Sequence record: OZ346164.1
Source of the DNA: a phage
DNA: 64,000 bases
Direction: 5' to 3' (one strand)
Shown: one piece after another, positions 4,500 to 58,630 of the stretch
Numbering within the stretch: position 1 is the first letter of the stretch
Layout of the letters: each line of letters opens with the position of its first letter
Translations under genes and position numbers: made by a program
The notes under the pieces: generated by a model
Database searches by the model: none
Seen by the model: only the letters and a program-made list of their open reading frames with translations
What the model was told of the DNA's origin: nothing

Positions 4500-4829
4500 T
4501 TAATCTGCCAGCCTTAAATTAAAATTAACACCAAATTTTTCGCATACTTCCAACATATACTCAAGCGAGACATTACCAGTGAGGTGGACTATGTTGGATA
4601 CACGAGCTTGAGAGATACCACAAATTTTAGCAACTTGCTCTTGAGAAAGACCTCTGGATTTAATCTCTCTCTTAAAACGATGTGCAACGAAATCTCTCAT
4701 TTCGTCTACATCCATTGGACAAATATAACTCTCCATTTCAGCCTCTCTGTCAGCCTCCCAATCATCTTGTGGAGCATAAGGGTCAAAAACCTCATTCATC
4801 TTTCTTCTTCCGTTTGCGTGAAGTGTCAA
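4500..4829 (-). CDS. helix-turn-helix DNA-binding protein
   Basis: QEQVAKICGISQARVSNIV resembles XRE-type HTH. Confidence 0.5.
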   Translation of the reverse strand: MTLHANGRRKMNEVFDPYAPQDDWEADREAEMESYICPMDVDEMRDFVAHRFKREIKSRGLSQEQVAKICGISQARVSNIVHLTGNVSLEYMLEVCEKFGVNFNLRLAD

Positions 4830-5389: not shown

Positions 5390-5822
5390 AATGACCTCAA
5401 AGTTATATTAAATTTTGTATTACATTGAGTATAAAAATAAGCTATAATACCTGACTTGTCAACAGATTTTATAGCTTATTTGGCAGATTTTTTATAAGGC
5501 TACTGCCATCCTTCCATACCAGACCACACCATGCCAAACCAGACTTCACATCACCTTACCGTGCAATACATTACTTAAAAACCCTCTTAAAAGGGTCTTA
5601 AGTGATGCTGGTGAGTACCCGTTGGTTTATGCTGCTCAGTATACTCACCAAATTTTCTATGTCAACAACTTTTTATATAAAAGTCCTGATAGCTATATGT
5701 GTTACAAAACAGAAGATTGTGAACAAGACACCCATTGCAAAGGATGTGTTCAAAAGCTTACTTGTGATGTAAGACAACACAAAGATAACTAATGCAAATA
5801 GTATGATTATGCTTAGCATAGT

Positions 5823-7954: not shown

Positions 7955-8005
7955 AAGCCCTCCTATATAAGATATAGTATAAGGTACTCTTCCATGAGCA
8001 CCTTG

Positions 8006-8539
8006 TCAACTTAGTTTTGCAAACTCTCCGTGGAGTTTAATAGCAGCTTCACAGTAAGCTTTATGGGCTTCTTCAGGTGTGTCATGGTGACCTAAAAACA
8101 TCTTCTTACCTTTATAACTTATCTGTGCGACCCACTTACCAGACTTCTTCTTAAGACTTACACCCTTGTACCCAGATTTATTGGTGACCGGTTTACCTTT
8201 ATTCCAAGCACTTTGAAAATCATCTGCTTCCCTTAAGTTTACAATCCTGTTGTCAAGTGAGTCTCCGTTGATATGGTCAATGATACCTTTTGGCATCTTG
8301 CCATACACGTAAAGCCATGCGAGTCTGTGTGCTTTATGTGCTTTCTTGTCAAAATAGATACTAACCTGTTTATGACCACTTGAATCAGTCTGGATATTAC
8401 CTGCCACCTTTCCTGCATAATTACTGTTAAAAACACTAACAGCTCTTGATTTACCTTCTCTACGAAGCCAAGTAAAGACCCCTGTTTCGGGGTCATAGTG
8501 CAGCAGCTCCTTTAAACGTTTTTGTAAAATTAAATCCAT
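8006..8539 (-). CDS. HNH homing endonuclease with AP2 DNA-binding domain
   Basis: IDHINGDSLDNRIVNLR HNH_3-like motif and SGYKGVS...WVAQI AP2-like motif; paralog of 18378..18893 (shared YDPETGVFTW). Confidence 0.75.
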   Translation of the reverse strand: MDLILQKRLKELLHYDPETGVFTWLRREGKSRAVSVFNSNYAGKVAGNIQTDSSGHKQVSIYFDKKAHKAHRLAWLYVYGKMPKGIIDHINGDSLDNRIVNLREADDFQSAWNKGKPVTNKSGYKGVSLKKKSGKWVAQISYKGKKMFLGHHDTPEEAHKAYCEAAIKLHGEFAKLS

Positions 8540-9097: not shown

Positions 9098-9326
9098 TAC
9101 ATCTGGTCAATACACTCGCAAGGTGTACCAGTTCTCTTATGAACTTCTCCGCATTTCTACGGAGTGTCGGACTATATCACGTAGCAGTGGTGCTACCGTT
9201 GCACTTGGGATGGTCATTAGCTTACCACCCTACTCTACTCAGTTCATACGTTAAGTATGCTTTTCGATAGTCTCTGAACGTTCCTCTTAAGAGGCTTCGC
9301 TGCTGATTACCATATCTTTACAGACT
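9098..9326 (-). other. group I-like intron in DNA polymerase gene
   Basis: Minus strand carries GTTCAGAGACTA (R-like) and GATATAGTCCG (S-like) core elements; splits motif B; no ORF. Confidence 0.6.
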
Positions 9327-11539
9327 TAGGCTTCCAGCAATTCACAACGTTTTACATGCGCCACTGACGCATAAATGCCATTTTTGGCTTTCTTACGACC
9401 TTTTGTAATCTCGTGGAGAAGTTCCTCATCCTGTGTCTCCCTACAACGAACAATGTCTTCTTCCTTGTTCAGACCAAAGTAAATACTATTCAGTGTATGT
9501 GCATCAGTACCTGTGTAGACTTCATAGAGGTCATTCTCAGCATCATAACGCAGATACTTGTCAGTTTCTGGGTTAAGATACTTGTCAAGATGCTTGCAGT
9601 AGTATCTACCATCATCTTGCTTAGTGAACTCAACTGACTCTTTACCCTCAGTTACCGCTTTAGTGAAGTCTTCATCACCCATAAAGTTACAAAGAAGAAC
9701 TAGCTGGGCTGAGTTTTGGTCTACAGAGACAACGTTAGTACCTTCTTCACAAATCCACACCTCCCTCATAGGTGCTCCATAGACAGCAGCACCAGACGGT
9801 ACGTTTACAATACCATATTGTGTCATACGTCCAGTTGAAGTACCAAACACCATTGCACCAGCACTAAGGCGACCATCAGGACGAATCTGGTTCAACCAAC
9901 CTTTTTCATCATCTTTTGAGTTCTCAATAGTTCTACGTCGGTGCATCAAAGTATAGTACTTAGCAATCTTCTGTCCAAGCTCACCTTCAATCGTATCATA
10001 AGATGATTCAGTAAGTTTTGGTGAAGTACGGATTAAGCAAGGCTCAAGCAAATCTGTGTATTTCTTCACAGACCAGTTATGCTCAATGTACTGGACACCT
10101 TCATGCTCAACATAGCTCAAACCACACCGCTCAACCATTTCCTGCCACTTAGGATGCTTTGTAATCATCTTTTTATTGTCTTTGAAACGACAAACTTTGA
10201 TAGGGCGACCATCTGAGTCTTTCTTGTAATTCCAGTCATCTGGAATCCAACCAACTGATTTCAAGTAGTCTTTAACAACTGCTACCTGAGTCATACGAGA
10301 AACTTCAAACTCAATTGGTGTATATGGTGCATCAATCAAACCTGTGTAGCGACTTGACTCAAGTTCAAAGTGGTTAACAACGTGGCTGTTATAGTACTTC
10401 ACAGTTTTGACTGTTTTTACTGGCTTCCAGTCTTTGCATTTCTTACCAATCTTTGCGTTCAACTCATTGCAAATTGCACGAGCATCCTTCATTGCTACAA
10501 AACCTTCCTTGTACTCTTCACCAGTTACAGAGTTGGTTGGTGTATAGCAATTCCTTTTTTCAATGTTAAAAATCTTTGTAGTTGGCTTACCAAATGGTTT
10601 GATTTCGTATGTCTGCATCTCACCATTACGTACCTGCTGACGATACTTTGTCTTAGGGTACTTGGTAATTCTTTTCAGTCCATCTGCATGACCAAATGTT
10701 TCAACATACTCATTCCAAGCTTTTGCAAACTCTTCTCCAGTGACTTTACCTTTGGTCTTAATAGTTGGAGGAAGATGTGGTTCAACCTCTGAAGCAAGCT
10801 CATTAGTCAACTTGTCAAGTTCCTTTACATGGAACTCCATAAGCTCTTTATCAGCTTTCCAACCATTAATAGCTTGTTGACTCATCCAGAAAGATGTTTC
10901 TTTAGCTCGCATGTAGGTTTCATAAGTGTCTATGCCACACTTCTTAAGCTTGAGATACTCATTATCAAGTGCCCGTTTAGTTTTGGCGTTAATACGGATA
11001 TCTTCTACAACACGAGTGAAGATTTCTGCATTCCACACACCCCAATGTTCAATCTCTGGTTTACGAACACCAACACGAGCACCCCATGCAGCCAAGCCAT
11101 GAGCACCTTTATAACCCTTTGGAGTTGGTCTATCCATCCACTGAACACGAGACTGGATAAGAGAATCCTGAAAGAAATTACTCCACGGCTTACACTTTGG
11201 ATTATCAAAGTTCCATAAATCCGGTGCAATGTGATTGAAAACCCACCAGTCATAACCTAGACCATTATGAATGCAAAGACGTTTTGCCTTTAACGCAAAC
11301 TCAACACCTTCACGTAAGCCACCCTTAATGTACTTGGTATACTTGTGACCGAGGATAGGCTCATCTGTAAAGACCCATACAGGCGGCTCTTTATCGTCAG
11401 ATTTATAGTCTGCGAAAGCCATTACGTGCACTTTAGTGAACTCAAGGAGTAAACCATCAGTTTCTGTATCACCAACTAAATGTAAGTTTTTAAAATCTAC
11501 GTTTTCCATTTTTACTCCCTCTAAAATCATTAACCTCAT
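9326..11539 (-). CDS. DNA polymerase (family A), exon 1 incl. 3'-5' exonuclease
   Basis: Exo I motif DTETDGL, motif A-like VSVDQNSAQLVLL, ends RKKAKNGIYA (first half of motif B); annotated stop probably lies in intron. Confidence 0.8.
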   Translation of the reverse strand: MRLMILEGVKMENVDFKNLHLVGDTETDGLLLEFTKVHVMAFADYKSDDKEPPVWVFTDEPILGHKYTKYIKGGLREGVEFALKAKRLCIHNGLGYDWWVFNHIAPDLWNFDNPKCKPWSNFFQDSLIQSRVQWMDRPTPKGYKGAHGLAAWGARVGVRKPEIEHWGVWNAEIFTRVVEDIRINAKTKRALDNEYLKLKKCGIDTYETYMRAKETSFWMSQQAINGWKADKELMEFHVKELDKLTNELASEVEPHLPPTIKTKGKVTGEEFAKAWNEYVETFGHADGLKRITKYPKTKYRQQVRNGEMQTYEIKPFGKPTTKIFNIEKRNCYTPTNSVTGEEYKEGFVAMKDARAICNELNAKIGKKCKDWKPVKTVKTVKYYNSHVVNHFELESSRYTGLIDAPYTPIEFEVSRMTQVAVVKDYLKSVGWIPDDWNYKKDSDGRPIKVCRFKDNKKMITKHPKWQEMVERCGLSYVEHEGVQYIEHNWSVKKYTDLLEPCLIRTSPKLTESSYDTIEGELGQKIAKYYTLMHRRRTIENSKDDEKGWLNQIRPDGRLSAGAMVFGTSTGRMTQYGIVNVPSGAAVYGAPMREVWICEEGTNVVSVDQNSAQLVLLCNFMGDEDFTKAVTEGKESVEFTKQDDGRYYCKHLDKYLNPETDKYLRYDAENDLYEVYTGTDAHTLNSIYFGLNKEEDIVRCRETQDEELLHEITKGRKKAKNGIYASVAHVKRCELLEA

Positions 11540-11569
11540 ACATTACTGCAAAAAATTATAAAAAGCAAG

Positions 11570-11598
11570 TTGACAATGCACTTGACAAGGTGTTAATC
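11570..11598 (+). promoter_or_regulatory. tandem TTGACA element (TTGACAATGCACTTGACAAGGTG)
   Basis: Two -35-like hexamers 6 bp apart; near-identical element at 56449. Confidence 0.4.
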
Positions 11599-11706
11599 TT
11601 TGCGAAGTGGGTTTTTACTTAAAAGGTTACTTAACAGTTTAACTATACAGATACTTTAAAACTCTTAAAAGATTATTTAATAGCTTTTAAAAAGCTTTAA
11701 AATATA

Positions 11707-11723
11707 ACGTATAGAATACGTTA
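11707..11723. promoter_or_regulatory. palindromic operator-like site
   Basis: Perfect 7-3-7 palindrome AACGTAT-AGA-ATACGTT in divergent intergenic region. Confidence 0.35.
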
Positions 11724-11766
11724 AGATAAAAGATTAAAACTTAATAGTTACTTAAAAGAGGCTTAC

Positions 11767-12189
11767 ATGCAGAAAATGTTTGTTCACCCAGACATAGCTG
11801 ACTTTGTTAGAGCTTTGCAGAAGTTGGAAGAACTTGACATTGCTGCTCAACGGGAATATGCTCACCATCACAGGAGAATGGTTGATATACAACATGAAAT
11901 AGAGTTGTCTGAAAACTATGAAGATGACTTAAAATGCTCTGTATTTGAGCATATGAAAGATGTTGCTACAGCTAGACGTAAAGCTAAAGACACAGTTGCT
12001 TTACTAGATTCTCTTAAAAAGAGGTTGCAAAGTGGTACAGACCTGTGTAATCTAGCGTCACTGATTAACGATGTTGAAACTTCTTGGGATAGGCACTATT
12101 ATCCACGTTCTGAAAAGACACTTGACTTTTCTTCATCAGAAAACTTAAAATGTTCTAGAAAGAAACTTAACCAACTGAGAGAGAAATAA
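11767..12189 (+). CDS. hypothetical protein
   Basis: 140 aa ORF, first gene after divergent promoter region. Confidence 0.4.
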   Translation: MQKMFVHPDIADFVRALQKLEELDIAAQREYAHHHRRMVDIQHEIELSENYEDDLKCSVFEHMKDVATARRKAKDTVALLDSLKKRLQSGTDLCNLASLINDVETSWDRHYYPRSEKTLDFSSSENLKCSRKKLNQLREK

Positions 12190-25175: not shown

Positions 25176-26375
25176 ATGAACAAAGTACAGATTATTAAAA
25201 AGAATGGCTCACTTGAAGAACCTGATATCAAAAAAGTTTTAGCAGCAGTCACAAAGTCAGCTAACAGAGTTGGTTATAAAGAGCTTCCACCAGATGTTAC
25301 TCAAGCTCTTGAGTCAGCATTTATGAGGATTCTGGTAAAGTCCACTAAGCAGAATAATTTGCTAATTTCGGTAAATGATATTCACAGTATTGTTGAGGGT
25401 GCTTTGGCAGAAGTCAATCACGAGATTTATGAGTCTTACTCAACATATAGAAATTACCGTAAAGAGGTTGCTCAAAATTGGGATGAACTCTACCAGAAGA
25501 CCAAAGATACACTCTTCTTAGGCGACCGAGAAAACGCTAATTTTGACAGCAGTTTAATTTCTACAAAAGGCTCAATTATTCGTGGTTACCTGACTAAAGA
25601 AATCTTTAAACAGTACCATTTAACACCAGAGGAACTTGAAGCCATTGAAAAAGGATTTATCTATATCCATGATTTAAGAGACCTAATTTTTGGTGGTATC
25701 AACTGTTGCCTGTTTGACATTGGTAAAGTCCTGAAAGGTGGCTTTGAAATGTCTGGCATTGAATATTGTGAACCGAAGTCTGTGCTGTCAGCCTTACAGG
25801 TTATTGGTGATGTAGTTCTTTCAGCAACTGCACAGCAATTTGGTGGCTTTACTTTAGCAGAGATTGATAAGGTACTTGTACCGTATGCTAAGAAGTCTCT
25901 ACGTTACCATGCTGAAAAAGCAACAGCTTATGGTATTCCTAAAGAACATTACCACAACTATGTCATGGAGCAGCTACAGATTGAATTAACTCAAGGTTTT
26001 CAGTCTCTTGAAATGAAGCTCAATACTGTGCCTTGTAGCCGTGGTGATTTTGCATTCACAACTTTGACATTCGGGTTACTTGACTCAGATATGTCTAATG
26101 AAGATAACCGACTGCAATACATGATTGCGAGCACTCTCCTAGATGTTCGTATGAATGGACAAGGTAAGAGCAAGAAACCTGTTGTATTCCCTAAACTGGT
26201 TTATATTTATGACCAGAAGAGACACAATGAGAATATCTGTCAAGGCCACCTGTACAGTAAAGCTATTGAGTGTTGCTCTAAAGCTATGTATCCAGATTTC
26301 TTAAGTGTATCTGGACATGGTGCTGTAGCAGAGGCTTTTGAGCGTTCTGGCAAGGTAATTTCCCCGATGGGTTAA
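25176..26375 (+). CDS. nrdD: anaerobic ribonucleotide reductase, exon 1
   Basis: ATP-cone N-terminus; reading frame interrupted, resumes at 26678. Confidence 0.75.
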   Translation: MNKVQIIKKNGSLEEPDIKKVLAAVTKSANRVGYKELPPDVTQALESAFMRILVKSTKQNNLLISVNDIHSIVEGALAEVNHEIYESYSTYRNYRKEVAQNWDELYQKTKDTLFLGDRENANFDSSLISTKGSIIRGYLTKEIFKQYHLTPEELEAIEKGFIYIHDLRDLIFGGINCCLFDIGKVLKGGFEMSGIEYCEPKSVLSALQVIGDVVLSATAQQFGGFTLAEIDKVLVPYAKKSLRYHAEKATAYGIPKEHYHNYVMEQLQIELTQGFQSLEMKLNTVPCSRGDFAFTTLTFGLLDSDMSNEDNRLQYMIASTLLDVRMNGQGKSKKPVVFPKLVYIYDQKRHNENICQGHLYSKAIECCSKAMYPDFLSVSGHGAVAEAFERSGKVISPMG

Positions 26376-26677
26376 CAAGCTCTATAGCTCATCTAAAACG
26401 TGCCTAAACAGGGAAACTCTACAGATGTAGACAATCCTGTGCTAAATGATGTACGATGTAAGAAACTATACAACATAGGAGTCTTACATGCCAAATAACT
26501 TCGAATATGAGTTTGAATACATCTAAATGCCGAACGACTAACCGTGATGAATGTAGCGGTGTAGGGTCAAGCGACTCGAAATGGTACGCTACTTAGAAAT
26601 AAGTAGAAGATATAGTCTGGACTTACTGGCGACAGTAAGCAGCTTGAATAAAGCGGGGTAAGCTTAGCGAACTTACT
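26376..26677 (+). other. group I-like intron in nrdD
   Basis: About 300 nt without ORF, contains CAGGGAA/ATCCTGT (P4-like) and GACTAACC/AGATATAGTCT (P7 R/S-like) elements. Confidence 0.6.
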
Positions 26678-27636
26678 TGAACAACAAGTGTAGAGCATTT
26701 TTATCACCATACCATAACGAACATGGTGAAGAGTTTTATGTAGGTCGTGCTAACATTGGTGCTGTATCTTTGAACTTACCAATGATTTATCAGTACACCA
26801 AAGAGAATGGCTTAGATTTCTGGAAAGAGCTTGATAAGTACCTAGAAATGATTCGCAGCTTCCACAAGAAACGTTACGAAATGATTGCTAATATGCCAGC
26901 AAGTTCTAACCCTCTTGCATTCACACAGGGTGGTCTGTACAAAGGGAATAAGAAACCTACTGACAAGGTTGGCTGGGATATCGTGAAGTCCTTCACAGCT
27001 TCTTTTGGGGTTACTGCGCTTGATGAGCTATCTGTTCTTGCTGAAGGTAAACGACTCCATGAAGTTGGAAGCTGTAGTTTTGCATATGATGTTCTGGCAT
27101 ACATTAACATGAAAACTGAAGAGTTTAAGAACGAAGATGGCTTCTTGTATGCGGTATATGGCACTCCAGCAGAATCACTTTGTGGAACTCAGTTAAAACA
27201 GTTCAGAGATATGTTTGGCGTTATTAAAGGTGTCTCTGACAAGGAATACTTTACAAACAGTTTCCATATGAATGTTGCAGCAGACATCTCACCATTTGAG
27301 AAGCAGGACTTAGAAGAGCCATTCTTCCATATCTGTAGAGGTGGTAGAATCCAGTATGTAAGGGTAGCTAACCCAGAAAACTTAACAGCACTTAAAAGTT
27401 GTATTACAAGAGGGATGTTGAAAGGTTTCTATCAGGGGCTTAACTTTGACTTAGCAATCTGTGAACATTGTGGTAACAGACCAAAGGCTGATGTTGAAGA
27501 ATGTGAGGTTTGCCATTCACATGATATCTCTGTGATTAACAGGGTGTGCGGGTACTTGTCATTCACAAAAATTAAAGGTCAGTCTCGAATGAATGACGCT
27601 AAGATGGCAGAAATTAAGGATAGGGTTTCTATGTAA
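26678..27636 (+). CDS. nrdD: anaerobic ribonucleotide reductase, exon 2
   Basis: C-terminal glycyl-radical motif RVCGYLSF and Cys4 zinc site CEHCG...CEVCH. Confidence 0.8.
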
Positions 27637-27647
27637 AACTTGACAAG

Positions 27648-28034
27648 GTGGTGTGGGTCTTGATAGGCTTACATCACCTTTTTATTTGGAGTTACATTAT
27701 GGACTTGTGGCTTTATGTAGCAGTTTGTGGGATTGTATGTCTGATAATCTTATTTATTCTTGGAATAATGCGATTTAGAGACATCATACAGTCAGATTTT
27801 TTGCCTGAGTTTACCATGATAGTTGGAGTTATTACACTTTGTGTCTTGGCTGTGTTCTATTCATACAAAACTGTGATATGGATGGAGGCAAACAATTGTG
27901 TAAAAACTCATCAGCATCGTGAGGTTACTCATTCTGTGAGTGTACTTAGTGGTAGCACCACTATACTTGTCCCACAAACTTCTGTAGAGTATCTTTACAC
28001 ATGTGATAATGGTAAAACTATATGGTGGAATTAA
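27648..28034 (+). CDS. membrane protein
   Basis: 128 aa, several TM segments. Confidence 0.35.
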   Translation: MVWVLIGLHHLFIWSYIMDLWLYVAVCGIVCLIILFILGIMRFRDIIQSDFLPEFTMIVGVITLCVLAVFYSYKTVIWMEANNCVKTHQHREVTHSVSVLSGSTTILVPQTSVEYLYTCDNGKTIWWN

Positions 28035-47290: not shown

Positions 47291-47419
47291 TCAATAACTT
47301 ACAAAAAACTTTTAAAAAAGTGTTGACAATACCCCTTGACATTGGTAACTTTGTTCGAGGGGGTTTATCTAAAAGGGATTCACTTAAAAGATTCTTTATA
47401 GATAAGCTTAAAAAATTGC

Positions 47420-47509: not shown

Positions 47510-48040
47510 ATGAACAAGTTTAAAGCTATCAACTTCATTCGTTCAAATGCTGTAATGTCAAAACCTGTAAAAGACACATACGAATTTCGCTGCAATGGGG
47601 TACACTTTGCAACCATCACTAAGTCAGAAAACGGGGCTTATTACGTACATCGTCGTAATGTTGCAACCGTTGTAGTCTCTCACTTTATGCAAGCTGTAGC
47701 GGAGTTATTACCGTTATTCTTAGAGATTTATCTAGGTGAGTGTAAAAACGTTCGTAACCACGTTAAAAACCTTTTAAACGGTTATAAAATGGCTTATGAA
47801 CGTTCTATCAAGTCCTTGAACAAGTTCTATAAAGCCCCTGTAAATACTGTTTCAATGGCTTACAGTGTAAGCGGTGAGTTGGTTAGCCTCTTCGAAGTAG
47901 AAGAAATTGAACTATATGACTCACGTCCTAGCGGTTACTCTAAGACACTGGGAGAAGGATTATCTTTCAATATCAAGAACTTAGAAAAAACTTTAAAAGA
48001 TATTGAAAAAGATATTGACGAAACAATAAAAAGTCTGTAA
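47510..48040 (+). CDS. small early-type protein
   Basis: 176 aa. Confidence 0.45.
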   Translation: MNKFKAINFIRSNAVMSKPVKDTYEFRCNGVHFATITKSENGAYYVHRRNVATVVVSHFMQAVAELLPLFLEIYLGECKNVRNHVKNLLNGYKMAYERSIKSLNKFYKAPVNTVSMAYSVSGELVSLFEVEEIELYDSRPSGYSKTLGEGLSFNIKNLEKTLKDIEKDIDETIKSL

Positions 48041-48357: not shown

Positions 48358-48395
48358 TCCACGCAGCGGGGCTAAATAGCCCCAGATACCTTTAC

Positions 48396-48423
48396 AGCCC
48401 CTTTCCCATAGGGGCTTTTTTAC
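48396..48423 (+). terminator. rho-independent terminator
   Basis: AGCCCCTTTCCCATAGGGGCT hairpin plus T-run; ends small-gene array. Confidence 0.6.
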
Positions 48424-48425
48424 GT

Positions 48426-49398
48426 CTATCCAATCCTCATACAACCCCTTTCCCTTTCCTTTCCAGAATCTTATCAGACCTTAAAAAGCAATAACTTTAC
48501 AGCCTTTTACTAAGTCAATTAATTGGCCTTATTAATAAGCCCTTAAACATAAGCCAATAACCCCAGAAAGGGGGCAACCCATTTAAACGCCATATAAAGC
48601 CCTATAACGGCCTTTTTAACCTAACTTAAGGGATTGCATTACCTCACCCTTAAAAGCCCTTTATAAAGCTTCACAGAGCCTTAAAAGAATCTTATAAGGG
48701 TGTGTTAAGACTTTTGAAGATTTGTTAAGAGCTTGAGAGAGTTGTTAAGAAATTGTTAAGGATATTTTAAAATTTTGCAAAGTACTTGTAAGGGAGCTGT
48801 TAAGGGCTACCAAGCAGATATACATCTTCTACAGATATTTTTCAGTTCCTTCAAAGACCCTAAAAAATGACTTGATAGTCCTATTTTATAAAAATTTTAA
48901 GATTCTGAATAATTACCTAGACAGTCTTTTAAAAATACAGGTAATAACAGGCTTATAAGATACCTTGTTAGTACCGTGTTAGACCTTGTGAGATAAGGTC
49001 TGTAAAGATATTCCTGTTAAGTTTGTTAAAACAGTCTATATAGAGGCTTAGTAATACCTAGTGAACACCTATAGAGGGTATCATAGCTAACCTAGAGATT
49101 AAGAGGTGTATAGGAGCTTCTAAGAGGGTATAGAGAGATGGTTAAGGTGATTGTATAGGTTGTTAAGAAGGCTTGTTAGAGGGCTTGTTAGAAGGGTTAT
49201 ACAGAGGGCTATTAAGACCACTAGATAGTTACTAAGATACTATATAGTACTATATAACTATATAGAGAGTAAGATTAAGAGGGTTGTTAAGAAGGATAGA
49301 TATTTTGTTCACATATGCTGGTGACCCAGAGGTTGGGACAACCGATGGAATTTTATAAAAATTAAAAAGCCCCCAATTAAGGAGGCTCTTAAGATATT
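48426..49398. repeat. about 1 kb non-coding region with dense short direct repeats
   Basis: No ORF of 60 aa or more on either strand; many copies of CCTTAAAAG-like, TGTTAAGA-like and TATAGAG-like units. Confidence 0.7.
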
Positions 49399-56205: not shown

Positions 56206-56369
56206 AGATAATCCTCTTGTCTTCTGTAATTTTGAAAGAACAGGTACAGACCAATTTCAGAGGATGAATAGTAGAGTAACTCTACCCTTTTTGATTCCTT
56301 ACAGTGATTGGTATTTTTACCTTTCTTCGGGTTGTTTGATTTTCTCATTAAGTCTCCTTTGTAGAACAA
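56187..56369 (-). CDS. hypothetical small basic protein
   Basis: 60 aa, first gene of minus-strand operon. Confidence 0.25.
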   Translation of the reverse strand: MFYKGDLMRKSNNPKKGKNTNHCKESKRVELLYYSSSEIGLYLFFQNYRRQEDYLCVVPN

Positions 56370-56448
56370 GGCAGACCTACAGCTTTAAGTAAGATGGTAC
56401 AGTAATCCATACAACAAGTCAAGAACTATTGCAAGTTAAAAAAGTTGT

Positions 56449-56477
56449 TGACAAAGTACTTGACAAGGTGTAGGCTT
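56449..56477 (+). promoter_or_regulatory. tandem TTGACA element (TTGACAAAGTACTTGACAAGGTG)
   Basis: Near-identical to element at 11570; divergent intergenic region. Confidence 0.4.
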
Positions 56478-56597
56478 ATAAATACTTAGAAGATAACTTA
56501 AAAGGTTCCTCTAAAAAGGCTATTTAAACAGATATCTTTCTGGATATCTATCTTTTATCTTAAAAGCCTTTTAAGAGGTCTTATAAGAGGCATACCA

Positions 56598-57050: not shown

Positions 57051-58466
57051 ATGAGCGAGTTATTTAAACATGCGCACCTTCATGCAGGTCGAACTGAAAA
57101 TGGTGCTGTAAACCATACTTCATCAATGTCTGCTCTGGTAGACTTCTACAAAGCCGCTGGCTCAAGCCGTAGCAATGTAGAAGTCTTACCAGACCTGTTC
57201 TACAAAGCTTTGCGTGAGGATGTTGATGTTGCAGTTCGTATTTTACTGCATATGCGAGATGTACGAGAGGGTATGGGTGAGCGTAAAGCCTTCCGAACTG
57301 TTTTACTTCAAGCAATTGAAGATAAGGTTTTAGAACCTACACAGGTTCTTCGCATTATGGATAAGATTGCAGAACTTGGTCGTTTTGATGACTTCAAAAT
57401 CTTCGTAGGTACTCGTTTTGAGACAGATGCCTTCAAACATTTAGAAGCAGCATTACTAGACCCTGCAACAGCAGGTTTGGCAGCTAAGTGGTTACCACGA
57501 GTCAAACCACGTCATAAGCAGTTTGTAAAACGTTTCTGCAAGTTTGCCAACTTGAGTGAGAAAGAGTACCGCACACTGTTGTCTGCACTATCTGATACAG
57601 TTGAGCAAAAAATCTCTGCTAATGAGTTTGGTAAGATTGACTACAGTAAGATTCCTTCACTTGCTGCTGCACGTTACCAAAAACTGTTTAACCGTAAAGA
57701 TGGAGAGCGTTACAAAGCTTACATCGAGTCCTTATCAAAAGGTGAGACTAAGATTAACGCTGGTGCTGTTTACCCATACGATGTGATTAAATCTGTCAAG
57801 TATGGTAATGCAGATGTTGCTAATGAGCAGTGGAAAGCACTACCAAACTGGATGGCAGAAGGTGAAAACATCTTGTGTATGTCTGATGTATCAAGTTCAA
57901 TGTCTTGGGTGAATTTTGGCTCCATTACTGCTCTGGATATTGGTGTATCACTTGCCTTGTATGTAGCAGAACGCAATACAGGTTGCTTTAAGAATGAGTT
58001 AATGGTTTATTCAACAAACCCTCACTTCATCGAACTGAGTGGTGATTTACGAAACCGTCATCGTCAGGTGATGCGACACGTTGAATATGGCTCAACTAAC
58101 TTACAAGCAGCTTTTGACCGCATTCTTGAAACAGGTAAAAGAAACAACTTGACTCAGAAAGATATGCCAAGTAAGCTTATCATCTTCTCCGATATGGAGT
58201 TCAATCAGGTTGATGGAGCTAACGGTCGTACAAACTTTGAAGCAATTCAGAGTAAGTACAAAAAAGCTGGATATGAGATGCCACAACTGGTATTCTGGTA
58301 CTTAGCAAACCGTAATGGTACTTGCGAAGTATCTGTTAAGGATAACGGTGTAGCAATGTTATCAGGGTTCTCTCCAGCCACTTTAAAAGCTCTGCTTGGT
58401 GGTGAGAAGTTTGACCCAATCAGTGTAATGCTCAAAGCAGTAATGATTGACCGTTATATCTGGTAA
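57051..58466 (+). CDS. von Willebrand factor A domain protein
   Basis: MIDAS-like DVSSSMS motif in C-terminal half; 471 aa. Confidence 0.5.
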   Translation: MSELFKHAHLHAGRTENGAVNHTSSMSALVDFYKAAGSSRSNVEVLPDLFYKALREDVDVAVRILLHMRDVREGMGERKAFRTVLLQAIEDKVLEPTQVLRIMDKIAELGRFDDFKIFVGTRFETDAFKHLEAALLDPATAGLAAKWLPRVKPRHKQFVKRFCKFANLSEKEYRTLLSALSDTVEQKISANEFGKIDYSKIPSLAAARYQKLFNRKDGERYKAYIESLSKGETKINAGAVYPYDVIKSVKYGNADVANEQWKALPNWMAEGENILCMSDVSSSMSWVNFGSITALDIGVSLALYVAERNTGCFKNELMVYSTNPHFIELSGDLRNRHRQVMRHVEYGSTNLQAAFDRILETGKRNNLTQKDMPSKLIIFSDMEFNQVDGANGRTNFEAIQSKYKKAGYEMPQLVFWYLANRNGTCEVSVKDNGVAMLSGFSPATLKALLGGEKFDPISVMLKAVMIDRYIW

Positions 58467-58484
58467 AAAGTTTTAAAAAGGGTA

Positions 58485-58513
58485 TTGACAATGTGTTTAA
58501 TACCCTTTAATAT
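58485..58513 (+). promoter_or_regulatory. sigma70-like promoter upstream of tRNA cluster
   Basis: TTGACA-17-TAATAT, flanked by AAGGGTATT/AATACCCTT inverted repeat. Confidence 0.5.
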
Positions 58514-58630
58514 GTTCTACATAGTAGCGAAATGAGAGCTTTTCTAAGATACTGAAAAATATTTTAAAAAAGTTCTTGACAATCACTAAAAAATAATGTT
58601 AAAGTGGTTACATAGAGTTTGAAAAGTTTA

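What the first reader, a model, noticed from the sequence alone, without database searches (positions are those of the whole stretch)
11570..11723. Conserved tandem TTGACA element shared by two divergent promoter regions, plus a perfect palindrome
TTGACAATGCACTTGACAAGGTG (11570) and TTGACAAAGTACTTGACAAGGTG (56449) are near-identical and both sit in divergent intergenic regions with ACTTAAAAGGTT nearby; CTTGACAAGGTG also occurs at 27634. The -10 spacing is not canonical for either hexamer, so this may be a regulator binding site and not a plain promoter. A perfect 7-3-7 palindrome AACGTATAGAATACGTT at 11707 is a candidate operator, possibly for the HTH protein at 4500..4829.
Basis: seen in the sequence. 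Interest (0 to 1): 0.4.

Follow-up and report, generated by a model that had tools for sequence, protein, structure and literature searches.

The report
Phage promoters with doubled -35 box
The repeated TTGACA pair is the core of three conserved host-RNA-polymerase promoters of a Felix O1-like phage, each with a second, unexplained but strictly conserved -35-type box inside its spacer; it is an unusual variant of an ordinary phage promoter, not a new kind of element.

Summary
The window is a Felixounavirus (Felix O1/wV8-like coliphage). TTGACA-N6-TTGACA lies in both divergent intergenic regions (R1 11570/11582, R2 56448/56460), and a third pair lies at 47323/47336 (R3, N7).

The upstream hexamer always has an A-tract (UP-like) before it and a TAnnnT 17-18 bp after it: TAATCT with TGn, TAGGCT, TAACTT. 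Across 89 homologues (28 haplotypes), T, A and the final T of this hexamer never change, while R2's inner bases vary freely.

The downstream hexamer never has a -10. Even so, all 36 hexamer positions are invariant, while 15 of 19 linker positions vary. Only the six bases that sigma70 region 4 reads are shared between loci. Distant relatives (Kolesnikvirus, Pectobacterium phages) have a single -35 and lack the HTH gene.

The palindrome is 8-3-8. Alone it is not statistically unusual, but its dyad is kept through two compensatory changes. It occurs once.

My verdict is sigma70 early-type promoters with a conserved auxiliary -35 box. The Felix O1 literature had partly predicted one of them (P41). 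The function of the second box is not resolved.

The parts
11549..11569 (+). R1 A-tract, UP-like sequence upstream of the -35 (CAAAAAATTATAAAAAGCAAG). Its last bases, read on the minus strand, are also the TTGCTT -35-like box of the proposed leftward DNA-polymerase promoter.
   Evidence: AAAAAGCAAG is invariant in 6 genomes of 3 genera
11570..11575 (+). R1 hexamer 1, TTGACA: proposed -35 of the rightward promoter
   Evidence: 18 bp to TAATCT; invariant in 33 homologues
11576..11581 (+). R1 linker ATGCAC, unconstrained in sequence but fixed in length
   Evidence: 4 of 6 positions vary among 33 homologues
11582..11587 (+). R1 hexamer 2, TTGACA, lying in the spacer at about -24 to -19; no -10 of its own
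   Evidence: no TAnnnT at 15-19 bp (sequence); invariant in 33 homologues
11591..11599 (+). R1 extended -10: TGT + TAATCT. The predicted start is near 11606 (inferred).
   Evidence: TG and TA(A/G)TCT are conserved while the -13 base varies
11617..11628 (+). R1 leader box ACTTAAAAGGTT, about +12 to +23 of the predicted transcript
   Evidence: identical 12-mer in R2; changes in parallel with the R2 box between genera
11705..11723 (.). Perfect 8-3-8 palindrome TAACGTAT-AGA-ATACGTTA in the R1 leader, 44 nt before the ATG at 11767
   Evidence: two compensatory pair changes; single copy
11540..11568 (-). Proposed leftward promoter for the DNA polymerase gene: TTGCTT-N17-TAATGT (weak -35)
   Evidence: TTGCTT and TA(A/G)(T/G)GT are kept while the spacer varies among homologues; inferred
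56427..56447 (+). R2 UP-like A-tract (TATTGCAAGTTAAAAAAGTTG)
56448..56453 (+). R2 hexamer 1, TTGACA: proposed -35. This is the hexamer of 'P41' in the Felix O1 paper.
   Evidence: 17 bp to TAGGCT; invariant in 34 homologues; PMC3185647
56460..56465 (+). R2 hexamer 2, TTGACA, in the spacer
   Evidence: invariant in 34 homologues while all 6 linker positions vary
56471..56476 (+). R2 -10, TAGGCT. The predicted start is near 56483 (inferred).
   Evidence: variants TAGGCT, TAGCCT, TAAGTT, TAGTGT and TAGTAT keep T, A and the final T
56496..56507 (+). R2 leader box ACTTAAAAGGTT
56558..56576 (.). R2 leader palindrome TCTTAAAAG-C-CTTTTAAGA, just upstream of the ribosome-binding site; part of a long predicted leader hairpin
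   Evidence: leader fold z = -2.8
56394..56422 (-). R2 leftward promoter candidate TTGACT-N17-TACCAT, back to back with the rightward promoter
   Evidence: invariant in 3 genera; an equivalent TTGACA-N17-TACCAT in Pectobacterium phage Wc4-1
47302..47351 (+). R3: near-consensus UP element, hexamer 1 (47323-47328), 7-nt linker, hexamer 2 (47336-47341), -10 TAACTT (47346-47351)
   Evidence: orthologue in Mordin; hexamers invariant in 22 homologues
47331..47372 (+). R3 terminator-like hairpin (ACCCCTTG.../...GAGGGGGT plus a T-rich tail) that contains hexamer 2 and the -10
   Evidence: RNA fold -18 kcal/mol, z = -3.2
27640..27688 (+). Single CTTGACAAGGTG site: TTGACA-N18-TAGGCT embedded in a strong intrinsic-terminator hairpin after the nrdD-like gene
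   Evidence: fold z = -5.3; a terminator is annotated at the matching place in Mordin
7981..8009 (-). Single GTTGACAAGGTG site: TTGACA-N17-TACCTT promoter candidate on the minus strand
4500..4829 (-).
   Evidence: Pfam HTH_3 E = 1e-9; PHROG 1373 transcriptional regulator; distribution limited to the tandem-hexamer clade

Best explanation
Each TTGACA pair is the core of a strong promoter read by the host sigma70 RNA polymerase. The layout is an A-tract (UP-like) sequence, then the upstream TTGACA as the -35, then a 17-18 bp spacer, then a TAnnnT -10 (with TGn in R1). Two of these promoters (R1, R2) head the rightward transcription units that leave the two divergent control regions. The third (R3) sits before the last genes of the small-early-gene block.

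The downstream TTGACA lies inside the spacer, 12-13 bp after the first. It is not a second promoter. Conservation covers exactly the six bases that sigma70 region 4 recognises and nothing around them. I therefore infer that RNA polymerase itself reads it, as an auxiliary docking site. Such a site could capture polymerase and hand it to the productive register. Alternatively it could hold sigma region 4 again once the enzyme has moved about 12 bp, giving an early pause. Either way it would tune these three promoters.

Shown here: the promoter architecture, and the purifying selection on both hexamers and on the -10. Inferred: the start sites, the timing of use, and the role of the second hexamer.

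The 8-3-8 palindrome is a separate element in the R1 leader. Its dyad symmetry is under selection, so it is either an operator for a dimeric protein or an RNA hairpin.
For: Identity of the window: 95-99% identical to Felixounavirus genomes.

Geometry:
- Hexamer 1 is followed at 18, 17 and 17 bp by TAATCT, TAGGCT and TAACTT.
- Hexamer 1 is preceded by A-tracts. R3 has CAAAAAACTTTTAAAAAAGTG, close to the UP consensus.
- About a dozen single-hexamer promoters in the window share this layout.

Selection, using homologues fetched by anchors outside the hexamers:
- R1 n=33, R2 n=34, R3 n=22, giving 28 distinct haplotypes.
- There are 0 changes in 36 hexamer positions.
- 15 of 19 linker positions vary.
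- The -10 keeps T, A and the final T, while R2's inner bases run through GGC, GCC, AGT, GTG and GTA.

Independent genome: the whole Mordin genome (Mooglevirus, roughly 80-88% identical in these intergenic regions) has exactly these three intergenic pairs.

Hexamer 2:
- It has no TAnnnT at 15-19 bp at any locus.
- Its flanks differ between loci, so only TTGACA is shared.

Earlier prediction: Felix O1 'P41' is TTGACA(N15)TATAGG (PMC3185647; sequence), and the AYO145A record annotates a promoter over the R2 pair.

Precedents:
- T4 early promoters are UP/-35/TGn/-10 promoters (PMC2988021).
- Overlapping promoter-like signals can compete with the true promoter or collect polymerase for it (PMC1635534).
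- Sigma70 region 4 bound to a -35-like element causes a pause at +14/+15 at the phage 82 PR' promoter (PMC3326312).
Against: - No transcription start has been mapped for any Felix O1-like phage in the literature I could search.
- The Felix O1 RT-PCR table puts ORFs 41 and 97 at maximal expression at 25 min, not 5 min. 'Early' is therefore not established.
- The -10 hexamers are only 3/6 matches to TATAAT. In R2 the TG abuts the hexamer instead of lying at -15/-14.
- A sigma-dependent pause normally needs a -10-like element in the early transcribed region. Only R2 has one (TACTTA). R1 has AAGTGG and R3 has GGGGGT.
- Related phages of Erwinia and Pectobacterium manage with a single -35 at the same loci. 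The second hexamer is therefore not needed for promoter function as such.
- Its restriction to the clade that also carries the HTH gene fits a phage factor as well as it fits polymerase.
- In R3, hexamer 2 is also part of a terminator stem, which could contribute to its conservation there.
Confidence: 0.6

Rival explanations
1. The doubled hexamer, or hexamer 2 alone, is the binding site of a phage-encoded regulator such as the Cro/C1-type HTH protein at 4500-4829. The regulator would switch these three promoters off or on during infection by occupying the -35/spacer region.
For: - Hexamer 2 is conserved without a promoter role of its own.
- The doubled state is confined to Felixounavirus, Suspvirus and Mooglevirus.
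- Distant Ounavirinae have a single -35.
- tblastn finds the HTH protein in 261 records of the same clade, plus only a weak partial match in Zymomonas records. It finds none in Erwinia, Pectobacterium or Hafnia phages, which do carry homologues of the two flanking genes.
- Temporal control in Felix O1 is stated to be unknown.
Against: - Conservation stops exactly at the hexamer edges, and the flanks differ between loci. HTH dimers usually read longer, dyad-symmetric sites, whereas this is a direct repeat.
- The co-distribution is a single phylogenetic event, so it is weak evidence.
- The Sigma70_r4 Pfam match of the HTH protein is below threshold (21 against 24.1 bits).
- No binding data exist.
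Confidence: 0.2
2. Two overlapping independent promoters: each TTGACA is a -35 with its own -10, giving two starts 12-13 nt apart.
For: - CTTGACAAGGTG is a working-looking -35 module elsewhere: 27640 with N18-TAGGCT, and 8009(-) with N17-TACCTT.
- R2 has TACTTA 17 bp after hexamer 2.
Against: - No TAnnnT lies 15-19 bp after hexamer 2 in R1 (AAGTGG) or R3 (GGGGGT).
- The R2 TACTTA lacks the final T, and it becomes CACTTA in haplotypes with a 1-nt insertion.
Confidence: 0.04
3. Loading site for a processive antitermination or similar elongation-modifying system. Hexamer 2 would pause early elongating polymerase through sigma region 4. The co-evolving leader box at about +12 to +23 would be the recognition element, as DNA or RNA, for a phage factor. 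That factor would let transcription run through the many internal terminators.
For: - All three doubled promoters are followed by a CT(T)AAAAGG box at about +11 to +23.
- The box changes in parallel in R1 and R2 between clades:
  - Felixounavirus: ACTTAAAAGGTT.
  - Suspvirus/Mooglevirus: CTTAAWAGACTC.
  - Kolesnikvirus: CTKAACAGRTTCTTT.
  - Pectobacterium phages: CTGAACAGTTAT.
- The Felix O1 paper notes numerous internal terminators with no explanation of how they are passed.
- There is a precedent for a -35-like element pausing polymerase at phage 82 PR'.
Against: - No Q-, N- or put-like component has been identified or searched for exhaustively.
- The phage also has many internal promoters that could explain expression downstream of terminators.
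- The parallel change of the two boxes could instead be gene conversion between R1 and R2.
- The leader box exists in clades that lack hexamer 2.
Confidence: 0.08
4. Replication-origin-type element: a strong promoter plus an AT-rich, repeat-bearing leader next to the replication genes, in the manner of the T7 primary origin or T4 oriA/oriF.
For: - R1 lies between the DNA polymerase gene and the primase/helicase block.
- The cumulative GC skew has its minimum there.
- The leaders are AT-rich and carry repeated CTTAAAAG/TTAACAG words.
Against: - The skew turn coincides with the switch in transcription direction, so it is not independent evidence.
- The same module heads R2 (tRNA and structural genes) and R3.
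- No iteron array or initiator protein was identified.
Confidence: 0.05
5. A neutral relic of a 12-bp duplication, or a chance similarity.
For: A 20/23 match between two 23-mers is not rare in an all-against-all comparison of 64 kb (my estimate).
Against: - Three loci, all intergenic, against 0.07-0.29 expected.
- Both hexamers are invariant in 89 homologues while the linker between them is saturated with changes.
- The same three loci are found in a different genus.
Confidence: 0.02

Closest known systems
T4-type 'uber' early promoters (UP/-35/TGn/-10), and strong coliphage early promoters such as T7 A1 and lambda PL (Hinton 2010, PMC2988021)
   Same: - They are read by unmodified host sigma70 polymerase.
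- They have an A/T-rich UP-like sequence, a consensus or near-consensus -35, a 17-18 bp spacer and a TAnnnT -10, sometimes with TGn.
- They belong to a virulent phage that encodes no RNA polymerase.
   Different: - Here a second perfect TTGACA lies inside the spacer at three conserved loci. I know of no such feature in the T4, T5 or T7 consensus (from memory, not tested).
- The -10 hexamers here are weaker (3/6 matches).
Predicted promoter P41 of Felix O1 (Whichard et al. 2010, PMC3185647) and the 'promoter' feature in the GenBank record of phage AYO145A (KR014248)
   Same: It is the same DNA. P41 uses hexamer 1 of R2, and the AYO145A feature spans both hexamers.
   Different: - The paper pairs the hexamer with TATAGG at N15.
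- The GenBank feature ends at TATAAA, which is 23 bp from hexamer 1 and 11 bp from hexamer 2. Neither is a workable spacing.
- The paper states that nothing similar was found in the 96-97 region (R1).
- Neither source notes the doubling, R3, or the conservation pattern.
Promoter-proximal sigma70-dependent pausing at lambdoid late promoters (lambda and 82 PR')
   Same: A -35-like hexamer downstream of the real -35 can be bound by sigma region 4 while the RNA is shorter than about 15 nt. At 82 PR' this gives a pause at +14/+15 (PMC3326312). The 12-13 bp offset here falls inside that window.
   Different: - The main determinant of such pauses, a -10-like element in the early transcribed region, is missing in R1 and R3.
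- No Q-type antiterminator is known in these phages.
- I could not read the primary paper (Perdue & Roberts 2010).
Clusters of overlapping promoter-like signals around real E. coli promoters (Huerta et al. 2006, PMC1635534)
   Same: Extra polymerase-binding signals overlap a functional promoter. Proposed roles are competition, pausing or collecting polymerase.
   Different: Those clusters are statistical and only weakly conserved. Here a single perfect hexamer at a fixed offset is invariant across three genera.
Activator sites made of direct repeats around the -35: lambda CII / P22 C1 (TTGC-N6-TTGC) and the Pho box (CTGTCAT repeats, 11-bp period)
   Same: A direct repeat of a short word sits in the -35/spacer region of a phage or host promoter.
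   Different: - The period here is 12-13 bp, not 10 or 11.
- The repeated word is itself a perfect -35, and the promoter is not -35-deficient.
- On the TGTCA-bearing strand the geometry fits a -10 only in this genome, not in relatives.
PeSL composite promoter-terminator cassettes of T4-like phages (PMC2839356, PMC4122927)
   Same: R3, the 27640 site and the TTTACA-GGGGCTTA repeats at 43-46 kb combine an early-type promoter with a stem-loop or terminator between small genes.
   Different: - R1 and R2 have no such hairpin (z = -1.3 and +0.2).
- PeSL-mediated shuffling was not tested here.

Membership tests
sigma70-dependent (host RNA polymerase) promoter | -35 hexamer close to TTGACA | tested here: met
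   Perfect TTGACA at 11570, 56448 and 47323
sigma70-dependent (host RNA polymerase) promoter | -10 hexamer of TAnnnT type, 17 +/- 1 bp downstream of the -35 | tested here: met
   TAATCT at 18 bp, TAGGCT at 17 bp, TAACTT at 17 bp. T, A and the final T are invariant, and R2's inner bases vary among homologues.
sigma70-dependent (host RNA polymerase) promoter | Located upstream of, and co-oriented with, a gene in non-coding DNA | tested here: met
   The promoters lie about 170, 120 and 160 bp upstream of the ATGs at 11767, 56598 and 47510
sigma70-dependent (host RNA polymerase) promoter | Transcription start 6-8 nt after the -10, dependent on sigma70 holoenzyme | not testable with these tools
   No start-site data for Felix O1-like phages were found
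Two overlapping promoters | Each -35 has its own -10 at 16-19 bp | tested here: not met
   Hexamer 2 is followed at 17 bp by AAGTGG (R1), TACTTA/CACTTA (R2) and GGGGGT (R3)
Sigma70-dependent promoter-proximal pause element (lambdoid PR' type) | [quoted passage not shown] | tested here: not met
   Only R2 has a weak candidate (TACTTA at about +1 to +6). R1 and R3 have none.
Sigma70-dependent promoter-proximal pause element (lambdoid PR' type) | -35-like element that sigma region 4 can reach before the RNA passes about 15 nt | tested here: met
   A perfect TTGACA lies 12-13 bp downstream of the -35. The functional meaning is inferred from PMC3326312.
Sigma70-dependent promoter-proximal pause element (lambdoid PR' type) | A cognate Q-type antiterminator gene | not tested
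   Only 8 proteins of the window were scanned against Pfam. None of those is Q-like.
Lambda CII / P22 C1 activator site | TTGC-N6-TTGC direct repeat (10-bp period) flanking a poor -35 | tested here: not met
   The repeat is TTGACA with a 12-13 bp period, and the -35 is perfect
Pho box (PhoB) | Two CTGTCAT-like repeats with an 11-bp period, about 10 bp upstream of a -10 and replacing the -35 | tested here: not met
   TGTCA repeats occur on the minus strand with a 12-bp period. A TATAAT lies 10 bp beyond them in this genome but is absent in Suspvirus and Mooglevirus.
Cro/CI-type operator (for the palindrome) | Dyad-symmetric site of about 14-19 bp | tested here: met
   8-3-8 perfect dyad. Symmetry is kept through C:G to T:A and A:T to T:A double changes.
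Cro/CI-type operator (for the palindrome) | Overlaps the regulated promoter, usually in several copies | tested here: not met
   Single copy. Near-matches are at chance level, 23 against 18.6 expected. It lies about 100 bp downstream of the predicted start.
Cro/CI-type operator (for the palindrome) | Binding by a cognate HTH dimer | not testable with these tools
   An HTH_3 protein is present at 4500-4829. Only its co-distribution is shown.
Known structured RNA family (leaders of R1 and R2) | Match to an Rfam covariance model | tested here: not met
   No hit for R1. For R2 there are only chance-level hits far below the gathering scores.
PeSL promoter-terminator cassette | Early-type promoter combined with a stable stem-loop | tested here: inconclusive
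   Met for R3 (z = -3.2) and the 27640 site (z = -5.3). Not met for R1 (z = -1.3) or R2 (z = +0.2).

The most novel reading that the evidence does not exclude
The three doubled promoters, together with their co-evolving +12 to +23 leader box, form a dedicated entry module. The second TTGACA would re-capture sigma70 region 4 after about 12 bp of movement and hold the early elongation complex. A lineage-specific phage factor that recognises the leader box (as DNA or RNA) could then modify the polymerase, for example for read-through of the many internal terminators or for temporal switching. This would be a Q-like logic built from different parts, in a phage family whose temporal control is unexplained.
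Probability: 0.1. Interest if true: 0.6.

Novelty: new variant of a known kind. Interest (0 to 1): 0.35.

Why it matters
Felix O1-like phages are widely used for Salmonella and E. coli typing, biocontrol and therapy. They have no RNA polymerase of their own, and their transcriptional programme is essentially unmapped. The 2010 genome paper says that how transcription is temporally regulated and how terminators are passed is unknown.

This analysis pins down the three most distinctive promoters. It corrects the published P41 geometry and finds the promoter that was missed in the polymerase-side control region (R1).

It also gives concrete, cheap targets for start-site mapping and mutagenesis: a strictly conserved second -35 box and a co-evolving leader box. 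If polymerase itself reads the second box, it would be a natural, strongly selected example of an in-spacer -35-like element tuning a promoter. That would interest people who study promoter design and polymerase escape or pausing.

If it turns out to be only a decoy with a small effect, the finding is a modest annotation improvement.

Tried and rejected
- **Own -10 for hexamer 2.** I looked at spacings of 15-19 bp and beyond in all three loci and their variants and found none.
- **Hexamers read on the other strand.** TTGTCA could in principle serve as a -35 for the leftward genes. In R2, TTGTCA-N18-(TG)AATAGT exists, but the hexamer weakens to ATGTCA in Mooglevirus. In R1 the spacings (10 or 22 bp) do not work, and the TATAAT there is not conserved. 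R3 has no leftward gene.
- **Pho box and CII-type readings.** Both fail on period and geometry.
- **Rfam search.** The two control regions give nothing meaningful.
- **RNA structure of the R1 leader as a whole.** It is no more stable than shuffles (z = -0.2). Only the two local dyads stand out.
- **Other copies of the palindrome.** None found.
- **A shared half-site, AAGCTWTWAAAT.** It links the R1 leader dyad (11675-11703) with a large inverted repeat around the promoter at 5462(-), upstream of the operon holding the HTH gene. There are three exact copies, and 9 matches with up to 1 mismatch against 4.3 expected. However, the half-site orientation differs, and the 5435-5481 repeat is absent from Mordin, so I dropped it as a conserved operator.
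- **Intergenic regions as unusually conserved.** I expected this but did not find it. Identity to other genera is 80-90%, about the same as the left flanking gene and only higher than the right one.
- **Transcriptome or start-site data.** Literature searches for Felix O1-like phages found none.
- **Perdue & Roberts 2010.** The paper could not be fetched.
Full report
**What the window is.** The 5-kb and 3-kb stretches around the two sites are 95-99% identical to more than 200 Felix O1/wV8-like phages of E. coli, Salmonella and Shigella, genus Felixounavirus. The Felix O1 genome paper describes four transcription blocks that leave two divergent intergenic regions, between genes 96/97 and 40/41. 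It notes that the phage has no RNA polymerase and no known polymerase-modifying factor. It found only one promoter-like site there ('P41', TTGACA-N15-TATAGG) and nothing in the 96-97 region. It states that temporal control and passage of the many terminators are unexplained (PMC3185647). In the window, the 96/97-type region is 11510-11766, between the DNA polymerase gene on the minus strand and a gene of unknown function on the plus strand; I call it R1. The 40/41-type region is 56348-56597; I call it R2.

**Checking the observation.**
- The two 23-mers are present. R1 starts at 11570. R2 starts at 56448, one base earlier than reported.
- CTTGACAAGGTG occurs exactly three times, at 11581, 27639 and 56459.
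- ACTTAAAAGGTT follows both pairs, at 11617 and 56496.
- The palindrome is 8-3-8, at 11705-11723.
- A third doubled hexamer, TTGACA-ATACCCC-TTGACA, lies at 47323-47341; I call it R3. It sits before the gene at 47510.
- Same-strand TTGACA pairs 10-14 nt apart number three, against 0.07 in shuffles and 0.29 expected from the observed TTGACA count. All three are intergenic.
- A perfect 8-3-8 palindrome is not remarkable in 64 kb: 3 observed against 1.4 expected. However, two of the three lie in the R1 and R2 leaders.

**They are promoters.** A scan for TTGACA-like hexamers followed by TAnnnT in non-coding DNA gives a coherent set of about two dozen sites. These share A-tract upstream sequences such as AAAAAGTTG-TTGACA. 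Two near-perfect UP elements lie before the tRNA cluster. All three doubled sites fit this set through their upstream hexamer:
- R1: TTGACA-N18-TAATCT, with TG at -15/-14.
- R2: TTGACA-N17-TAGGCT.
- R3: TTGACA-N17-TAACTT, with a near-consensus UP element.

The simple consensus scanner missed these sites because it demands 9 of 12 matches with at least 4 of 6 in each hexamer. The -10 hexamers here match TATAAT in only 3 positions, although these are the three most important ones.

**Evolutionary test.** I fetched homologues from GenBank phages of three genera. I also fetched IMG/VR contigs using anchors that lie outside the hexamers. This gave R1 n=33, R2 n=34 and R3 n=22, or 28 distinct haplotypes in all.
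- All 36 hexamer positions are invariant.
- 15 of the 19 linker positions between the hexamers vary, often with three or four different bases.
- Linker length never changes.
- The proposed -10 behaves as a -10 should. In R2 it reads TAGGCT, TAGCCT, TAAGTT, TAGTGT or TAGTAT: T, A and the final T are fixed and the middle is free. In R1 it reads TAATCT or TAGTCT, with the TG kept and the base between them variable.
- The complete genome of Citrobacter phage Mordin (Mooglevirus) contains exactly three intergenic doubled hexamers, at the orthologous places. It has one further pair inside a coding region with a 9-bp period.

Both hexamers are therefore under strong purifying selection, and so is the -10.

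**What the second hexamer is not.**
- It has no TAnnnT at 15-19 bp at any locus. R1 has AAGTGG and R3 has GGGGGT. R2 has TACTTA, which becomes CACTTA in some haplotypes.
- Read on the other strand it does not give a consistent leftward promoter, and R3 has no leftward gene.
- Its period (12, 12 and 13 bp) fits neither the CII-type (10 bp) nor the Pho-box (11 bp) arrangement.
- R1 and R2 form no significant hairpin there (z = -1.3 and +0.2). R3 and the single site at 27640 do lie inside strong terminator-like hairpins (z = -3.2 and -5.3). At 27640, Mordin has an annotated terminator at the matching position. That part of the pattern resembles the composite promoter-terminator cassettes (PeSLs) of T4-like phages.

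**What it may be.** Across the three loci the only shared conserved bases are TTGACA itself; the flanks differ. This matches the specificity of sigma70 region 4 better than that of a dimeric HTH regulator. I therefore favour a second polymerase contact.
- One version is a docking site that collects polymerase for the productive register or competes with it. Such roles have been discussed for overlapping promoter-like signals (PMC1635534).
- The other version is a site that region 4 meets again after about 12 bp of forward movement. A region-4-dependent pause at +14/+15 through a -35-like element is reported for the phage 82 late promoter (PMC3326312).

This step is inference. The usual -10-like pause determinant is missing in R1 and R3.

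**Evidence pointing the other way.** In Kolesnikvirus (Erwinia and Hafnia phages) and in Pectobacterium phages, the orthologous regions have a single TTGACA or TTTACA with TAnnnT at 17-18 bp. The second hexamer is thus a clade-specific addition. The Cro/C1-type HTH protein at 4500-4829 (Pfam HTH_3, PHROG 1373) has tblastn homologues in 261 records. Apart from a weak partial match in Zymomonas records, all are from the same clade. None is from the Erwinia, Pectobacterium or Hafnia phages that do carry the two flanking genes.

**The leader box.** The 12-mer ACTTAAAAGGTT that follows both pairs changes in parallel at R1 and R2:
- Felixounavirus: AAAAGGTT(A/C)C at both.
- Suspvirus and Mooglevirus: AAWAGACTC(C/T) at both.
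- Kolesnikvirus: CT(T/G)AACAG(A/G)TTCTTT at both.
- Pectobacterium phages: CTGAACAGTTAT at both.

Either the two regions are homogenised by gene conversion, or a lineage-specific factor reads the box. CTTAAAAG is also the most over-represented 8-mer in the window: 28 copies against 5.5 expected, with 16 of them in the 17% of DNA that is non-coding. Part of that excess reflects its overlap with ribosome-binding sites and with UP-like A-tracts.

**The palindrome.**
- Three haplotypes exist: TAACGTAT-AGA-ATACGTTA, TACGTAT-AGA-ATACGTA and TATGTAT-AAC-ATACATA. Symmetry is kept through two double changes.
- In Arno162 the symmetry is lost.
- It is unique in the window.
- It lies about 100 nt downstream of the predicted start and 44 nt before the start codon.

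It is therefore a selected dyad, either an RNA hairpin in the leader or a site for a dimeric protein. It is not a classical promoter-overlapping operator. R2 has its own leader dyads, and its leader folds into a long hairpin (z = -2.8). The R1 leader as a whole does not (z = -0.2). No Rfam family matches either region.

**Limits.**
- The intergenic regions are about as conserved as their left flanking genes, not more.
- No start-site or RNA-seq data for these phages were found.
- The old RT-PCR table places ORFs 41 and 97 at peak expression at 25 min, so the time of use is open.

**Verdict.** The elements are sigma70-type phage promoters, one of which had been loosely predicted before. The conserved in-spacer second -35 box, its restriction to one clade and the co-evolving leader box are new details that deserve a start-site map and a handful of point mutants. 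I rate the finding as a new variant of a known kind, of moderate interest.

Noticed in passing
window 9147-9429 (-) and 26258-26639 (+): Two group I introns by Rfam (61.7 and 54.6 bits against a gathering score of 50). One interrupts the DNA polymerase gene; relatives annotate 'DNA polymerase (x2)'. The other interrupts the anaerobic ribonucleotide reductase gene.
   Followed up: no
window 43133, 43735, 44809, 45605, 45938 (+); also 44437 and 45304 (+): Repeated cassettes AAAGTAC-TTTACA-nGGGGCTTA...TAnnnT-AAGCCCCAGATAAAGAG lie between small genes. The promoter's spacer and -10 sit inside a GGGGCTTA/TAAGCCCC hairpin. They correspond to the 57-bp and 39-bp direct repeats listed in the Felix O1 paper and resemble the PeSL promoter-terminator cassettes of T4-like phages.
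   Followed up: partly
window 58460-58610 (+): Promoters before the tRNA cluster carry near-perfect rrnB-type UP elements. An example is GAAAAATATTTTAAAAAAGTTC-TTGACA-N18-TAAAGT at 58576.
   Followed up: no
whole window; for example 11618, 11664, 11751, 47383, 48649, 48680, 56497, 56559, 56971: CTTAAAAG occurs 28 times against about 5.5 expected, with 16 copies in the 17% of DNA that is non-coding, mostly co-oriented with transcription. Some copies overlap ribosome-binding sites, some sit 11-12 bp upstream of -35 hexamers, and some are in leaders. Mordin has 23 copies.
   Followed up: partly
window 11617-11635 and 56496-56512; L002-L018: The leader boxes after the R1 and R2 promoters change in parallel between genera (GGTT to GACTC, and CTTAAAAG to CTGAACAG in distant clades). 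This indicates gene conversion between the two control regions or a shared lineage-specific factor.
   Followed up: partly
window 5435-5481: An inverted repeat with 19-nt arms (89% complementary) brackets the -35 hexamer of the minus-strand promoter at 5462, upstream of the operon that includes the HTH gene. It shares the word AAGCTATAAAAT with the R1 leader dyad (11675-11703). It is absent from the corresponding region of Mordin.
   Followed up: partly
window 11674-11704: A second conserved near-palindrome, TATTTAATAGCTTTT-A-AAAAGCTTTAAAATA, lies directly upstream of the 8-3-8 palindrome in the R1 leader. It is almost invariant across three genera.
   Followed up: no
window 56497-56587: The R2 leader RNA is predicted to fold into one long imperfect hairpin (-28.4 kcal/mol, z = -2.8). 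The hairpin pairs the 5' CUUAAAAGG box with the region just upstream of the ribosome-binding site. The sequence is invariant in relatives, so covariation could not be assessed.
   Followed up: partly
window 48358-49398: About 1 kb without an ORF of 45 codons or more lies between the convergent ends of two transcription blocks. It contains two CTTAAAAG copies and has no Rfam hit.
   Followed up: no
GenBank records MG065664, MG065668, OK283618 and others: Records labelled Campylobacter, Staphylococcus or Listeria phage carry Felix O1-like sequence. The Campylobacter records are 96-99% identical to this window. These are probably contaminant or mislabelled entries.
   Followed up: no
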